From UHGV virus genome UHGV-1994978: a stretch of 12,529 bases of DNA. The stretch is one strand, 5' to 3'. The stretch is from a virus. Positions within the stretch are counted from its first letter, which is position 1. The number at the start of each line of letters is the position of its first letter. Of the stretch, positions 1 to 12,529 are shown one piece after another. The translations under genes and the position numbers were made by a program. The notes under the pieces are model-generated. The model was not told where the DNA came from and did no database searches. It worked only from the letters and a program-made list of their open reading frames with translations.

Positions 1-489
1 GTGCAGGACAGGATTGAAGAAATAGAAAAAGAAATTATCAATGCTCAAACTGTAAGAGAGATACCTAAATTTGATTTTGATATGGATGAAGTACTTGATC
101 CAATGAACATAGAGCTACGAGCGAAAGTGCGAAAACAGCTTAGGTTAGTACTTAAAGCAGTGAAATACTGGATGTTCGATAAGCGTATTTTTATCCAATT
201 GGAATACTTCAATGATGTACTTTCACACATGCTTGTAATTGATAATAAACGTGGCGGTGGAGATGTAATATATGAAATGTCTATTGAAGAAAGAAAGGGT
301 GAACGAATCTATACAGTTCATGAAAATGGTCATGCAGTTTTCATTGCATCAGTAACTATCGGCACAGATATATGGTCATTAGCTTTAAGCCGCACACGTA
401 CAATTGATAGCATTGGCAATTACCTAAGCCTCCTTGCTCGTGAAGGTTTTGAGATCTTTGTGAACGAAGATCAAATTGATTGGTTTTAG
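1..489 (+). CDS. hypothetical phage protein; frame is open at the window start, so the true 5' end may lie upstream
   Basis: 162-codon ORF from the track, stop at 487-489, followed by a terminator hairpin; no recognisable motifs. Confidence 0.5.
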   Translation: MQDRIEEIEKEIINAQTVREIPKFDFDMDEVLDPMNIELRAKVRKQLRLVLKAVKYWMFDKRIFIQLEYFNDVLSHMLVIDNKRGGGDVIYEMSIEERKGERIYTVHENGHAVFIASVTIGTDIWSLALSRTRTIDSIGNYLSLLAREGFEIFVNEDQIDWF

Positions 490-568: not shown

Positions 569-598
569 ACCTCGCAGGAGAGATTCTGCGAGGTTTTT
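569..598 (+). terminator. rho-independent terminator
   Basis: ACCTCGCAG (569-577) / CTGCGAGGT (586-594) stem with 8-nt loop, then TTTTT (594-598), about 80 nt after the stop of ORF 1..489. Confidence 0.6.
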
Positions 599-717
599 CC
601 ATGTATGGTAATGCAATGAGGTGAGGCGTGGCTTGGGGGGCGTATAGAGCGTTACAGGAAGGATTTGCGTTAAGTGTTAGTTTGATGTGCATATCTGAGT
701 ATATTTTCCTATTATCT

Positions 718-746
718 TTGACCAGTCCTCGGGAATAATATATAAT
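718..746 (+). promoter_or_regulatory. sigma70-type promoter, TTGACC -17 bp- TATAAT
   Basis: -35 TTGACC at 718-723, 17-bp spacer, perfect -10 TATAAT at 741-746, about 90 nt upstream of ORF 836. Confidence 0.55.
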
Positions 747-835
747 GGCTTCACGCCCTTAATAAAGGCTAGGCAGACAAAAGAGATATATAAATCTTTT
801 CGCTACTGCCGATATCAAGTAGGAGCAAGTCCAAA

Positions 836-1192
836 ATGACACTCAAACATAATGAAACACATATTTATTATTCCAATGATTGTGCCGTAGAACAACAAGA
901 TAAAGAAATCTGGATCGACCAGAATTTAGTATATAGCTGCTGTAAAGGCGATGAAGTAGAGTATACAGAAGGTAATAAGTCGGACTCTCCATTCTATGGT
1001 CAAGAGGCTTTACAAACTATGTATTATACTGACCGTGGAAATGTTCAGTATAATAATGAAGATGGGAGTTTTTACTTTCGCCTTGATGATGGGAATATGA
1101 ATACATACATAGATGGACAACTCCAGATTGATGATCCTAACGGTGACTATGTAGAATTCATTGAGTTCGCAAATAGTGTAATGTCTAAGTAA
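836..1192 (+). CDS. highly acidic small hypothetical protein (118 aa)
   Basis: ORF with AGGAG at 821-825 upstream of ATG 836; roughly 23 Asp/Glu against 7 Lys/Arg by eye; sits downstream of the consensus promoter. Confidence 0.6.
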   Translation: MTLKHNETHIYYSNDCAVEQQDKEIWIDQNLVYSCCKGDEVEYTEGNKSDSPFYGQEALQTMYYTDRGNVQYNNEDGSFYFRLDDGNMNTYIDGQLQIDDPNGDYVEFIEFANSVMSK

Positions 1193-1205: not shown

Positions 1206-1248
1206 CGAAGGTGCTAACCTTCGACGGTCATCATATATGACCGATTTT
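1206..1248 (+). terminator. tandem hairpins, putative terminator
   Basis: CGAAGGT/ACCTTCG stem (1206-1223) and CGGTCA/TGACCG stem (1225-1243) followed by ATTTT; just after stop of ORF 836..1192. Confidence 0.4.
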
Positions 1249-1292
1249 AAGTGAGATACCATAAATACTCCTATAACAGATAGGAGAGATTT

Positions 1293-1466
1293 ATGAATTG
1301 GATATACAAAATAATCTTTGAAATCATTGCTACGGCAATCTATATGTTCGTACTATTTCCATGTTGGATAGTACTGTGCATCTTTTTTATGTTACTAACA
1401 GTATTAGCACTACCTTTGAAAATTCCAACCATAAATAAAATGGTTATCAAGTTTTTGGAACGATAA
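1293..1466 (+). CDS. small hydrophobic membrane protein (57 aa), not in the ORF track because it is under 60 aa
   Basis: ATG 1293 preceded by AGGAGAG; my translation MNWIYKIIFEIIATAIYMFVLFPCWIVLCIFFMLLTVLALPLKIPTINKMVIKFLER; almost entirely hydrophobic. Confidence 0.45.
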   Translation: MNWIYKIIFEIIATAIYMFVLFPCWIVLCIFFMLLTVLALPLKIPTINKMVIKFLER

Positions 1467-1604: not shown

Positions 1605-1757
1605 ATGAAAGAAAAGAAAACTATTAGTGTTGGGGTGAGATTAAGTCCTACACAAGAAGAAATACTAAAATCACTTATAGTGTGTGGTAAGGCTACAACG
1701 ATGAGTTCAGCCATTCAGTATCTGATACAGCAATATGGGATTTTAGATAGTAAGTAA
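1605..1757 (+). CDS. ribbon-helix-helix (Arc/MetJ/CopG-like) DNA-binding protein; alternative in-frame start at 1578
   Basis: AAGGA (1594-1598) six nt before ATG 1605; MKEKKTISVGVRLSPTQEEILKSLIV-CGKATTMS-SAIQYLIQQYG fits a beta-strand / helix / Gly-loop / helix RHH layout. Confidence 0.5.
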   Translation: MKEKKTISVGVRLSPTQEEILKSLIVCGKATTMSSAIQYLIQQYGILDSK

Positions 1758-1830: not shown

Positions 1831-2331
1831 ATGAAAAAGGAAAAAAGAAATGACCTAAAGGGTCAGGAATTACCACATGTAAAACAAGCACTACGAGTAT
1901 GGAATAATTTTCACTCAAGAGTACGTAATAACATCAATTACAGTACTGTTACCATCTGCGATGACTGGTATCGGTTTAGTGATTTTTATTATTGGTATGT
2001 TGAAAATGTTGTTGATGGTTGGCATTTAGATAAAGACATATTAGGAGGTAATGAGTACAGCCCAAGTAACTGCATCTTTGTACCGAGAGAAGTAAATCAA
2101 TTGTTCCGTAAAGTACCAACATCATTATCAACCGGTGTTGTCGTTAATCAAAAGGGCTATCAAGCACAAGCAACATTTGATAAGAAAGTACATAAGTTTG
2201 GGACATACCCAACGATAGAAGAAGCTCATGCTGCTTATGTTGTTGGGCGTAAATCATATATCTATAAAATATCGCAGCAGTATAAAGCATTTCCAAAACT
2301 TAGTGCGGTACTATTACAAAAATCACAATAA
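1831..2331 (+). CDS. HNH homing endonuclease (HNH_3-type nuclease motif plus AP2-like DNA-binding domain)
   Basis: DGWHLDKDILGGNEYSPSNCIFVPREVN matches the HNH_3 His/Asn pattern; C-terminal YQAQATFDKKVHKFGTYPTIEEAHAAY resembles the AP2 domain typical of phage homing endonucleases. Confidence 0.8.
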   Translation: MKKEKRNDLKGQELPHVKQALRVWNNFHSRVRNNINYSTVTICDDWYRFSDFYYWYVENVVDGWHLDKDILGGNEYSPSNCIFVPREVNQLFRKVPTSLSTGVVVNQKGYQAQATFDKKVHKFGTYPTIEEAHAAYVVGRKSYIYKISQQYKAFPKLSAVLLQKSQ

Positions 2332-2403: not shown

Positions 2404-2853
2404 ATGGCAAGAAAAGAAGCAATTCATAATAATCAGAAAGTAAAGGGAGCATTAAAAAATATAACATTACATGCCCTTTCCAAAGAAGCAAAAGATGTAA
2501 TGAGAAATCTAATTCAAGAAAGTGATTTTTTAGGTAAAAACAGAGTACCAGAAGAAGACGTGTATGCCATTGTTCGTAATAGTCCAGAGTTAAGCGAACA
2601 GCTAACATTTGAATATCTAAAGCTATACAGACAAACAAAAGGTATGAACTACCCGGATAGTAAATCAGCACGTGAGAAGTACAAGAGGATCGCTACGCTC
2701 ATTTCACAGGCATTCGAGCAACTACTGAACGATGGTGTACCCCTCAACATGATTGCAAAGTATAAGTCTAAGCAGTTGATGACAGACGAACAGAAAGCCG
2801 CACATCTAGAGATGTTGACCTGCTCCCCGTTGATTAGTACACCCCGATGTTAG
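2404..2853 (+). pseudogene. phage gene interrupted by IS insertion (N-terminal part; native frame ends at the IS junction 2815/2816, the last 12 codons are read from the IS inverted repeat)
   Basis: ORF with AGGGG upstream of ATG 2404; reading frame runs straight into the IS left inverted repeat. Confidence 0.5.
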
Positions 2854-2858
2854 TAATG
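2816..2858. repeat. IS left terminal inverted repeat
   Basis: TGACCTGCTCCCCGTTGATTAG...GTTAGTAA aligns with the reverse complement of the right end. Confidence 0.7.
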
Positions 2859-2886
2859 TCTTCATAAGCCACATGAGGACATCCCC

Positions 2887-3150
2887 ATGAAGAAGCGTTT
2901 TTCCGACGAACAGATCATCAGTATTCTCCGCGAAGCCGAAGCTGGGGTACCCGCCCGTGAACTCTGCCGCAAGCATGCCATTTCCGATGCCACGTTTTAC
3001 ACCTGGCGTAAGAAGTATGGCGGTATGGAGGTGCCTGAAGTTAAGCGCCTGAAGTCGCTTGAGGAAGAGAACACCAGACTCAAGAAGCTGCTTGCCGAAG
3101 CCATGCTGGATAAAGAGGCGCTTCAGGTGGCTCTTGGGCGAAAGTACTGA
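2887..3150 (+). CDS. IS3-family transposase OrfA (helix-turn-helix and leucine-zipper part)
   Basis: [46 protein letters not shown]... is the typical IS3/IS407-group OrfA pattern. Confidence 0.9.
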
Positions 3151-3173
3151 CGACAGACCAGAAGCGGGAAGCC

Positions 3174-4218
<1,045 letters not shown>

Positions 4219-4620: not shown

Positions 4621-7820
<3,200 letters not shown>

Positions 7821-9657: not shown

Positions 9658-9681
9658 GTGAGAGTTAATAAAGCATGGGAG

Positions 9682-10107
9682 ATGTTCGATACTGATATGT
9701 GGGATATGTCAGAAGTAACAGATGGGAACTACGTTTCGTTTATCTACATTATTCAGTTTCCAGAGACTGGCGAGTACTATTTCGGTAAGAAGCAAATCTA
9801 TAAAAAAGTACGCGACATAAAGAATTTAAAGGCTACTTCAATTGAATCGAACTGGCCTGATTATACCGGTAGTAGTAAGTGCGTTAATGAAATGATTGAT
9901 GCCGGAATGCCATACACTAAAAAGATTTTGTACTGTGTTAAATCTGACGCAGAGGCAACGATTTTAGAAACAGCATTGATTAGCTACATTGGTTTACATC
10001 CCGACTGCTTAAATAAAGCAATTATGTGTAAAGCACGATTGCCAAAGAATCGTTTAGATTTATTTAAAGTACTGCAAGATCTAATTGATATGTTGGGTGT
10101 GAGGTAA
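9682..10107 (+). CDS. hypothetical protein, possibly a small GIY-YIG-like nuclease domain; track start 9658 (GTG) is the alternative
   Basis: GGGAG four nt before ATG 9682; SFIYIIQFPETGEYYFGKK loosely fits GIY...YIG spacing, with later Arg and Glu (ILETAL) candidates; weak assignment. Confidence 0.5.
   Translation: MFDTDMWDMSEVTDGNYVSFIYIIQFPETGEYYFGKKQIYKKVRDIKNLKATSIESNWPDYTGSSKCVNEMIDAGMPYTKKILYCVKSDAEATILETALISYIGLHPDCLNKAIMCKARLPKNRLDLFKVLQDLIDMLGVR

Positions 10108-11524: not shown

Positions 11525-12529
<1,005 letters not shown>

What the first reader, a model, noticed from the sequence alone, without database searches (positions are those of the whole stretch)
836..1192. Highly acidic small protein driven by a near-consensus promoter
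The 118-aa product is very acidic by eye and its gene follows TTGACC-17-TATAAT. Small acidic early phage proteins are often DNA mimics or other host-takeover and anti-restriction factors such as Ocr or ArdA, though I see no sequence similarity to known ones.
Basis: inference. Interest (0 to 1): 0.45.

Follow-up and report, generated by a model that had tools for sequence, protein, structure and literature searches.

The report
Orphan acidic prophage accessory protein
A real, well-promoted gene for a small, very acidic protein of an unknown family sits next to the integrase of a decayed E. coli prophage. It behaves like a swappable phage accessory gene, perhaps an inhibitor of some host protein, but nothing shows that it mimics DNA or blocks restriction.

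Summary
ORF 836-1192 encodes a 118-aa protein (pI 4.05, net charge -16) preceded by TTGACC-17-TATAAT at 718-746. The gene is under purifying selection. Its promoter, a structured about 83-nt leader and a tandem 3' hairpin are conserved in relatives.

The window is an IS-damaged prophage remnant that integrates with a large serine recombinase between yeaG and mipA in E. coli. The protein belongs to a tiny family of 26 clusters, all in Enterobacterales prophages and all annotated as hypothetical. It always lies just downstream of the recombinase.

AlphaFold gives a confident fold (pLDDT 93) of eight beta strands plus a C-terminal helix. That fold has no significant match in the PDB or among viral models. 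There is no hit in Pfam, PHROGs, PADLOC or NCBIfam, so it is not Ocr or ArdA.

It is unlikely to be the recombinase's directionality factor. Its sequence identity does not track recombinase identity, and a sister prophage with a 96%-identical recombinase C-terminus carries an unrelated gene in the same slot.

Best reading: a self-contained, moron-type accessory cassette encoding an acidic protein-binding inhibitor. The target is unknown, and DNA mimicry is untested.

The parts
1..489 (+). 3' end (last 162 codons) of a large serine recombinase (integrase) gene; context rather than part of the cassette
   Evidence: 100% identical to the C-terminus of the 644-aa 'recombinase family protein' next to yeaG in E. 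coli AREA_C483. Relatives carry Resolvase, Recombinase and Zn_ribbon_recom domains.
569..594 (+). Terminator-like hairpin after the recombinase gene (11-bp stem followed by a T run); it insulates the cassette from upstream transcription
   Evidence: An equivalent hairpin is present in relatives.
718..746 (+). Sigma-70-type promoter TTGACC-17-TATAAT (11 of 12 matches)
   Evidence: A TATAAT with a -35-like element is found at a comparable position in most relatives checked.
753..835 (+). Predicted 5' leader of about 83 nt. It contains the palindrome GCCCTTAATAAAGGC (755-769), a hairpin at 772-810, the motif GCCGATAT and the Shine-Dalgarno AGGAG (821-825). There is no upstream ORF.
   Evidence: Folding energy z = -2.4. 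The leader is nearly invariant between E. coli, E. cloacae and E. soli copies, and substitutions in the palindrome keep the dyad. The other leader type has hairpins with compensatory changes and an invariant CTAC-N6-GTAG-CGG motif found once per locus. There is no Rfam match.
836..1192 (+). Coding sequence of the 118-aa acidic protein (pI 4.05, net -16); predicted compact domain of eight beta strands plus a C-terminal helix
1206..1250 (+). Tandem 3' hairpins. Hairpin 1 is 1206-1223. Hairpin 2 is 1225-1243 (CGGTCAT...ATGACCG), followed by ATTTTAA. This is the predicted terminator or 3' end of the cassette.
   Evidence: 95% of cells are paired, and 5 of 7 pairs of hairpin 1 show compensatory changes. 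Hairpin 2 with its tail occurs once per locus, always just after this gene.
1293..1466 (+). Neighbouring small hydrophobic ORF (57 aa, two predicted membrane helices) whose Shine-Dalgarno lies in a hairpin (1268-1286). It is a conserved neighbour, not shown to be a partner.
   Evidence: A 26-29-aa hydrophobic ORF ending HYWH or HKWY occupies this position in other loci. It is retained in the sister prophage that lacks the acidic gene.
1605..1757 (+). Neighbouring 50-aa protein that looks like a ribbon-helix-helix regulator. This is inferred from the sequence pattern; one source names a homologue Arc/MetJ-type.
   Evidence: Conserved in 11 of the 12 related loci examined. One homologue is named as an Arc/MetJ-type ribbon-helix-helix regulator by JGI. 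No Pfam or PDB profile hit reaches significance.

Best explanation
The gene is the payload of a self-contained, moron-type accessory cassette. The cassette consists of its own sigma-70 promoter, a structured leader, the ORF and a tandem-hairpin terminator. It sits in the integrase-proximal slot of an uncharacterised lineage of Enterobacterales prophages that integrate with large serine recombinases.

The product is a compact, soluble, cytoplasmic, strongly acidic beta-sheet domain. It has no catalytic or nucleic-acid-binding signature. It therefore most likely works stoichiometrically, by binding and blocking another protein.

The most likely class of target is a basic, nucleic-acid-handling host or competitor protein, which would make it an anti-defence or host-modulating inhibitor. 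The amount made would be set by the strong promoter and by the conserved RNA structures at both ends of the transcript.

Shown here: the gene, its acidity, the cassette anatomy and its conservation, the confident fold, and the fact that the slot is swappable. Inferred: inhibitor function, the class of target and the timing of expression.
For: - **Real gene:** it is under purifying selection, with dN/dS 0.15-0.45. Acidity is conserved at 36-66% identity.
- **Confident fold:** pLDDT is 93.2 and pTM 0.84, and all five models exceed 91. The fold is eight strands plus a C-terminal helix. There is no signal peptide or hydrophobic segment (sequence).
- **Cassette anatomy:** an upstream terminator, an 11/12 promoter, a conserved leader and 3' hairpins with covariation.
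- **Accessory character:** E. coli 14EC007 carries the same prophage type at the same site. Its recombinase C-terminus is 95.7% identical and it has the same downstream small membrane ORF and RHH-like gene. An unrelated 125-aa gene replaces the acidic cassette.
- **Accessory-rich neighbourhood:** in relatives the region between integrase and terminase carries UzuA, an OLD nuclease, a reverse transcriptase and DUF3800.
- **Published parallel:** anti-defence operons combine strong promoters, structured 5' UTR motifs and small HTH or RHH regulators (bioRxiv 10.64898/2026.07.27.740549). A small RHH-like gene lies about 410 nt downstream here.
Against: - No partner, phenotype or expression data exist.
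- An acidic pI alone is weak evidence for an inhibitor.
- The RHH-like gene is separated from the acidic gene by hairpins and another ORF, so this is not a canonical acr-aca operon. The RHH assignment is not confirmed by any profile.
- No repeated operator was found linking the promoters.
- The cassette has the same G+C content as its neighbours, 35%, so it is not a recent import.
- It is present in nearly all sampled members of the lineage, which would also fit a core regulatory role.
- The T tract after hairpin 2 is short (ATTTTAA), so termination may be partial.
Confidence: 0.4

Rival explanations
1. One reading: a DNA-mimic anti-restriction protein of the Ocr or ArdA kind. It would be made early in infection and would occupy the DNA-binding groove of type I restriction-modification enzymes.
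For: The protein is small and acidic, with net charge -16, 19.5% D+E and pI 4.05, and acidity is conserved. It has a strong promoter and lies in phage context. The prophage also carries its own DNA methyltransferase at 11819-12529, so restriction is a relevant pressure.
Confidence: 0.12
2. A lysogen-expressed moron that benefits the host. Examples would be a sensor or decoy in superinfection exclusion or abortive infection, possibly acting with the adjacent small membrane peptide.
For: It is an autonomous promoter-plus-terminator cassette next to the prophage end. It is intact in two IS-ridden prophage remnants. The neighbourhood in relatives is rich in defence genes. A small hydrophobic ORF is conserved immediately downstream.
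Against: The membrane ORF is kept when the acidic gene is replaced, so they are not an obligate pair. No PADLOC family matches. Soluble 118-aa proteins without an effector domain are unusual as defence proteins. Intactness in recent remnants may simply reflect their young age.
Confidence: 0.2
3. A lysis-lysogeny regulator, such as an antirepressor that titrates the prophage repressor or the neighbouring RHH-like protein.
For: Its position in the lineage is constant, next to a small RHH-like gene. The leader and promoter region are elaborate and conserved. Acidic proteins can compete with DNA for a repressor's binding surface (general knowledge).
Against: A sister prophage lacks it, although that prophage is defective. 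No repressor has been identified in this lineage. No LexA box or shared operator was seen (and inspection).
Confidence: 0.12
4. The recombination directionality factor (excision cofactor) of the adjacent large serine recombinase.
For: It is always the next gene after the recombinase. Known directionality factors are small, diverse and lack a common fold (PMC12286644).
Against: Identity between acidic proteins does not follow identity between their recombinases. In one pair the acidic proteins are 65% identical while the recombinases share 23% over the catalytic domain only. In another pair the recombinases are 97% identical and the acidic proteins 60%. In a third the figures are 78% for the acidic proteins and 36% for the recombinases. 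A prophage whose recombinase C-terminus is 95.7% identical carries an unrelated gene instead. Directionality factors bind their cognate integrase specifically and are usually not syntenic with it (PMC12286644).
Confidence: 0.05

Closest known systems
Phage 'morons' (autonomous promoter-gene-terminator cassettes inserted between conserved phage genes)
   Same: It has its own sigma-70 promoter, its own hairpin terminator and an upstream terminator. It lies in a prophage, and an unrelated gene occupies the slot in a sister prophage.
   Different: G+C content is the same as the neighbouring genes. The gene is present in most sampled members of the lineage. Expression from the repressed prophage is not known.
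Ocr (T7 gp0.3) and ArdA DNA-mimic anti-restriction proteins
   Same: Size of about 120 aa, strong net negative charge, carriage on a mobile element and a strong promoter.
   Different: There is no sequence similarity. The predicted beta-sheet fold differs from the helical Ocr dimer and the elongated three-domain ArdA (the architectures of Ocr and ArdA are taken from established structural literature).
Anti-CRISPR/anti-defence operons with an Aca regulator (including the RHH regulator Aca14)
   Same: A strong promoter, a conserved structured 5' UTR, a small acidic payload that varies between related elements, and a small RHH-like gene nearby.
   Different: The RHH-like gene is not in the same predicted transcript, because hairpins and another ORF intervene. 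No shared inverted repeat was demonstrated. There is no similarity to any catalogued family. The RHH fold is not confirmed.
Recombination directionality factors of large serine integrases
   Same: A small phage protein encoded next to a large serine recombinase.
   Different: It evolves independently of the recombinase and is absent from a prophage with nearly the same recombinase.
Polo-box domain (PLK4 PB3) as the nearest fold
   Same: An antiparallel beta sheet packed against a C-terminal helix; a protein-protein interaction module.

Membership tests
Ocr (Pfam PF08684, T7 gp0.3) | Sequence match to the family profile | tested here: not met
   The Pfam scan at E <= 10 returns only CBM_10 at E 0.3. 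PHROGs returns nothing relevant. There is no tblastn hit in phage records.
Ocr (Pfam PF08684, T7 gp0.3) | All-helical dimer that mimics bent B-DNA | tested here: not met
Ocr/ArdA-type DNA mimics in general | Surface array of carboxylates that matches DNA phosphate spacing | not testable with these tools
Only composition (net -16) and the positions of conserved acidic residues are known.
Ocr/ArdA-type DNA mimics in general | Inhibits type I restriction-modification enzymes | not testable with these tools
   This needs a plating or transformation assay.
ArdA (Pfam PF07275) | Sequence match to the family profile | tested here: not met
   and no plasmid tblastn hit.
Phage moron | Own promoter directly upstream | tested here: met
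   An 11/12 consensus match at 718-746, conserved in position in most relatives checked. This is a prediction; the transcription start was not measured.
Phage moron | Own terminator directly downstream | tested here: met
   Tandem hairpins at 1206-1243 followed by ATTTTAA, 95% paired across 9 loci with compensatory changes. The T tract is short, so efficiency is unknown.
Phage moron | Present in some but absent from other closely related phages at the same position | tested here: met
   E. coli 14EC007 has a recombinase C-terminus 95.7% identical and the same downstream genes, with an unrelated 125-aa gene in the slot. This rests on one example.
Phage moron | Base composition different from the flanking genes | tested here: not met
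   G+C is 35.0% against 34-36% for the neighbours.
Phage moron | Expressed from the repressed prophage | not testable with these tools
   This needs RNA-seq or a reporter in a lysogen.
Recombination directionality factor of a large serine integrase | Cognate pairing: the factor co-varies with its integrase and accompanies it | tested here: not met
   Pairwise identities are uncoupled. The gene is absent beside a near-identical recombinase.
Recombination directionality factor of a large serine integrase | Binds the DBD2/coiled-coil junction and switches the reaction to attL x attR | not testable with these tools
   No multimer prediction or recombination assay is available here.
acr-aca type anti-defence operon | Payload co-transcribed with a small DNA-binding regulator that binds repeats in the promoter | tested here: inconclusive
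   An RHH-like gene lies about 410 nt downstream, but behind hairpins and another ORF. A dyad at +2 to +17 keeps its symmetry through substitutions. No repeat is shared with the downstream promoter.
acr-aca type anti-defence operon | Payload matches a known anti-defence family | tested here: not met
   No hit in Pfam, PHROGs, NCBIfam or PADLOC. No dedicated anti-defence library was available.

The most novel reading that the evidence does not exclude
The protein founds a new structural family of phage-encoded inhibitors. Its target would be a defence or DNA-handling system of Enterobacterales, for example type I restriction-modification or type I-E/I-F CRISPR-Cas, or one of the systems carried by rival prophages. 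Its output would be controlled by a previously undescribed pair of cis-acting RNA elements: the conserved 5' leader motifs and the covarying 3' tandem hairpin. The neighbouring RHH-like protein might take part in this control, in the manner of Aca regulators.
Probability: 0.2. Interest if true: 0.6.

Novelty: new member of a known kind. Interest (0 to 1): 0.35.

Why it matters
If the protein is an inhibitor, it would add a new fold and a new family to the phage counter-defence or host-takeover repertoire. It has no detectable relatives in sequence or in structure. It would also give an entry point into a prophage lineage in which almost every early gene is unannotated.

The conserved leader and 3' hairpins are testable cis-regulatory RNA elements. 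As things stand, this is a well-defined hypothetical protein. Its value is as a candidate for anti-defence and interaction screens, not as a finding that changes current views.

Tried and rejected
- **Family and homology searches.** Pfam, PHROGs, PADLOC and NCBIfam scans of the protein found nothing significant. The best hits were CBM_10 at E 0.3 and the Mrh PHROG at E 0.12, both rejected as noise. tblastn against phage and plasmid records found no match. A profile search of PDB sequences gave nothing below E 0.4.
- **Exhaustive phmmer search of representatives.** Apart from family members, it returned large repeat proteins at E 1e-9 to 1e-4 with 5-7 matched stretches each. Their Pfam content is Tudor/Agenet, RTX and Big_13. 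The matches are repeated 'DG-aromatic...DDG' hairpin turns, so I treat them as compositional or repeat-inflated rather than homologous.
- **Rfam** on 450-1900 found nothing near any gathering score.
- **Directionality-factor hypothesis.** Examined and down-weighted. A fused-chain AlphaFold test of recombinase binding was considered but not run.
- **Shared operators.** A repeat search of 490-2880 found none. No LexA-box-like site was seen by inspection.
- **Other cargoes on the 3' hairpin-2 motif.** A scan of IMG/VR found only family members and unrelated generic terminators.
- **Literature.** No paper mentions WP_000172777.
- **Neighbouring genes.** Attempts to identify a repressor or replication genes in this lineage failed. 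The tail protein has only relatives of 27% identity or less among sequenced phages.

Full report
**Observation**

The ORF at 836-1192(+) is present as described: ATG start, TAA stop, 118 aa. It has 13 Asp and 10 Glu against 5 Lys and 2 Arg, which gives net charge -16 and pI 4.05. This is the lowest pI of any ORF of 80 aa or more in the window. The N-terminus (MTLKHNETHIYYSND) has no hydrophobic segment, so the product should be cytoplasmic.

It is the only 11/12 match in the window. AGGAG lies at 821-825, 10 nt before the ATG.

The consensus match by itself is not improbable. 47% of simulated sequences of this length and composition contained at least one 11/12 site, and promoter-like sites are not enriched overall. 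Its credibility comes from its position and from conservation, described below.

**Where the window comes from**

Bases 1-489 are the end of a 644-aa large serine recombinase gene. In E. coli AREA_C483 the same DNA (98.6% identity) lies between yeaG and mipA as a prophage. The recombinase is at the yeaG end. Terminase fragments, IS elements, a lysozyme, a DNA methyltransferase and a DUF2188 gene follow before mipA.

The window itself is a more decayed copy. An IS3-family element (2816-4036, with inverted repeats TGACCTGC...) truncates the ORF at 2404-2853 and abuts tail genes, so the terminase-to-head region is missing. Only 2 of 5,426 complete E. coli genomes carry this prophage type. No sequenced phage is close; the tail protein has relatives of 27% identity or less.

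**The family**

A word-indexed search of 5.8 billion proteins found 6 clusters with the single sequence and 26 with a profile. An exhaustive phmmer search of 1.84 billion representatives added nothing beyond family members and repeat-inflated hits.

All members are 106-127 aa and all are annotated as hypothetical. Those with a named source come from Enterobacterales: Escherichia, Enterobacter, Citrobacter, Kosakonia, Pectobacterium, Pantoea, Phytobacter and Mangrovibacter. There is no match in Pfam, PHROGs, PADLOC, NCBIfam, PDB sequences, phage records or plasmids.

Acidity is conserved (pI 4.05-4.62, net -9 to -19) and dN/dS is 0.15-0.45. It is therefore a real protein on which the acidic character is maintained.

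**Structure**

- With 7 sequences AlphaFold2 gave pLDDT 85.5.
- With 26 sequences it gave pLDDT 93.2 and pTM 0.84, with all five models above 91 and the same topology.
- The topology is strands 5-11, 23-27, 30-36, 39-46, 60-65, 68-73, 79-83 and 88-92, then helix 106-117.

**Anatomy of the transcription unit**

- **Upstream insulation.** A strong terminator-like hairpin (569-594 plus a T run) closes the recombinase gene.
- **Promoter.** A -10 TATAAT with a -35-like hexamer 16-18 nt upstream recurs at a comparable distance in most, though not all, of the relatives checked. Some have an extended TGnTATAAT, and the flanks differ.
- **Leader.** The predicted 83-nt leader is more conserved than the coding sequence between the E. 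coli, E. cloacae and E. soli copies.
  - A dyad at 755-769 keeps its symmetry through substitutions: GCCCTTAATAAAGGC, GCCGCTATTAACGGC and GCTGTTAGTAACAGC.
  - A hairpin at 772-810 folds better than shuffles, z = -2.4.
  - A second leader type, in other members, has a hairpin with compensatory changes (TGAGA/TCTCA, TGAGC/GCTCA, TGGGT/ACCCA). It also has an invariant CTAC-N6-GTAG-CGG motif found once per locus, 25-45 nt before the ATG.
  - No Rfam family matches.
- **3' end.** Two hairpins follow the stop codon, at 1206-1223 and 1225-1243, then ATTTTAA.
  - Across nine loci 95% of cells are paired.
  - Five of seven pairs of the first hairpin show double compensatory changes.
  - The second hairpin is invariant in sequence (CGGTCA...TGACCG).
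  - None of 500 shuffles reached the observed covariation score.
  - The second hairpin with its tail occurs exactly once per locus, always after this gene.

The gene therefore looks like a monocistronic cassette bounded by terminators.

**Context in relatives**

In every locus examined the order is:

1. a large serine recombinase;
2. a 190-640-nt intergenic region;
3. the acidic gene;
4. a tiny hydrophobic ORF;
5. a 49-50-aa RHH-like gene;
6. an HNH/AP2-like gene;
7. a 155-170-aa gene;
8. a variable block, largely on the other strand, that in different relatives holds UzuA, an OLD-family nuclease, a reverse transcriptase or DUF3800;
9. lambda-type terminase genes.

The integration site differs with the recombinase: yeaG/mipA, or next to a rimO-like radical-SAM gene.

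**Is it the recombinase's directionality factor?**

Constant adjacency suggested this, but the test fails. Pairwise identities of the acidic proteins (43-78%) do not follow those of the adjacent recombinases:

| Pair | Acidic protein identity | Recombinase identity |
|---|---|---|
| L001 vs L002 | 65% | 23%, catalytic domain only |
| L001 vs L018 | 60% | 97% |
| L016 vs L013 | 78% | 36% |

In addition, E. coli 14EC007 has the same prophage type at the same site. Its recombinase C-terminus is 95.7% identical, and it has the same small membrane ORF and RHH-like gene. An unrelated 125-aa gene stands in place of the acidic cassette, and the tandem hairpins are absent. Directionality factors are cognate-specific and usually not syntenic with the integrase (PMC12286644). 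I put this reading at about 5%.

**What it most likely is**

The slot is swappable and the unit has its own promoter and terminator. That is the definition of a moron-type accessory cassette, although its G+C equals that of its neighbours.

The product is a well-folded acidic domain without enzymatic or DNA-binding features. The most economical mechanism is stoichiometric binding of another protein.

Two features resemble published anti-defence loci. Those loci combine strong promoters, structured 5' UTR motifs, small HTH or RHH regulators (Aca14) and variable payloads. Here, too, there is a strong promoter with a structured leader and a small RHH-like gene nearby. The RHH assignment rests on the sequence pattern (for example KGVGVRL-ETQEKVLQ-SGAIQYLIN in the Pantoea-type copies) and on one source annotation. 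Profile searches did not confirm it.

I therefore favour an inhibitor of a host or competitor protein at about 0.4 overall, with the cassette anatomy itself much more secure. The rivals are:

- a lysogen-expressed protective moron, 0.2;
- an antirepressor-like regulator, 0.12;
- the specific DNA-mimic anti-restriction reading, 0.12.

None of these can be excluded without experiments.

The class suggested, a small acidic phage accessory factor, is compatible with everything found here. The named examples, Ocr and ArdA, are excluded as families by sequence and by fold. 'Early' timing is an assumption.

**Limits**

- There are no expression data, no multimer prediction and no dedicated anti-defence profile library.
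- The AlphaFold-database fold library was unavailable.
- The evidence that the slot is swappable rests on one sister prophage.
- The terminator has a short T tract.

Noticed in passing
window 753-835; also L016 2600-2730, L018 7870-8000, L013 2575-2669: The 5' leader of the acidic gene is conserved and structured. It comes in at least two variants that share a GC(C/G)GATAT motif before the Shine-Dalgarno. One variant has a hairpin with compensatory changes and an invariant CTAC-N6-GTAG-CGG element found once per locus. No Rfam family matches. It may be an undescribed cis-regulatory RNA or a protein-binding site.
   Followed up: partly
window 1206-1250: A tandem 3' hairpin element follows the acidic gene. 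The first helix covaries (5 of 7 pairs). The second is invariant in sequence (CGGTCA...TGACCG, then RTTTTAAT). Sequence invariance in a terminator stem suggests recognition by a protein, or overlap with the next promoter.
   Followed up: partly
window 1268-1466; L016 about 3180-3260, L013, L009, L020, L002, L006 (gap after the acidic gene): A conserved tiny hydrophobic ORF lies after the acidic gene. It is 57 aa here and 26-29 aa elsewhere, ending ...LKIVSKVILHYWH. Its Shine-Dalgarno sits in the 3' arm of a 7-bp hairpin, preceded by a conserved TGATAAATA motif. Size, hydrophobicity and the occluded ribosome-binding site resemble type I toxins or small phage membrane peptides.
   Followed up: partly
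window 1605-1757: A 50-aa protein has a ribbon-helix-helix-like pattern and is conserved in nearly all related loci. It belongs to a family of 67 clusters, again apparently confined to Enterobacterales; one member is named Arc/MetJ-type by JGI. A hairpin followed by a T run (about 1530-1570) lies between the predicted promoter at 1455-1484 and its start.
   Followed up: partly
window 2816-4036: An IS3-family insertion sequence of 1,221 bp has terminal inverted repeats TGACCTGC(T/C)CCC and two transposase ORFs at 2887-3150 and 3174-4007. It truncates the ORF at 2404-2853 and joins it directly to tail genes, so it marks a deletion of the terminase-to-head region. Its G+C is 53% against about 36% in the flanks.
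   Followed up: partly
L031 5259-5636 (E. coli 14EC007, NZ_CP024131.1): An unrelated 125-aa gene (WP_053887548.1, pI 5.1, N-terminal RGRVPK) occupies the slot of the acidic gene in a sister prophage at the same chromosomal site. It has no family match.
   Followed up: partly
L018 10672-11478 and 13267-15087; L016 8025-9317; L001 32154-33275: The region between the early cluster and the terminase in related prophages is a variable block. It carries known or candidate defence genes: UzuA (Uzume), an OLD-family ATPase-TOPRIM nuclease, a reverse transcriptase and DUF3800.
   Followed up: partly
L001/L018/L022/L026 versus L002/L006/L027/L029/L030: One conserved phage backbone is combined with very different large serine recombinases (19-50% identity). 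It integrates at different sites: between yeaG and mipA, or next to a rimO-like gene. The integration module has therefore been exchanged.
   Followed up: partly
L018 8001-8342 (P0005): This copy of the acidic gene is a mosaic. The last 32 residues and the downstream genes match the window. The leader and the N-terminal two thirds are of the other type. This implies recombination inside the gene.
   Followed up: no
window 1831-2331 and 9658-10107: Two mobile-endonuclease-like genes lie in a small prophage remnant. One is a 166-aa protein that matches the central part of HNH-endonuclease PHROGs. The other is a GIY-YIG (SegE-like) protein.
   Followed up: no
window 4702-4723: A run of 22 N (an assembly gap) lies inside the start of the large tail-protein ORF at 4662-6392.
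   Followed up: no
window 649-700; L031 about 4750-4800: A conserved non-coding block (GCGTTACAGG...TTTGCGTTAAGT) lies just after the recombinase terminator. It is retained even in the prophage that has a different gene in the slot, so it belongs to the backbone rather than to the cassette. Its function is unknown.
   Followed up: no
P0028 (127 aa): One family member has a tandem duplication of the segment GKKSDSPFY. Many others lack about three residues (EVE/EYx) just before this segment, so this loop tolerates length change.
   Followed up: no
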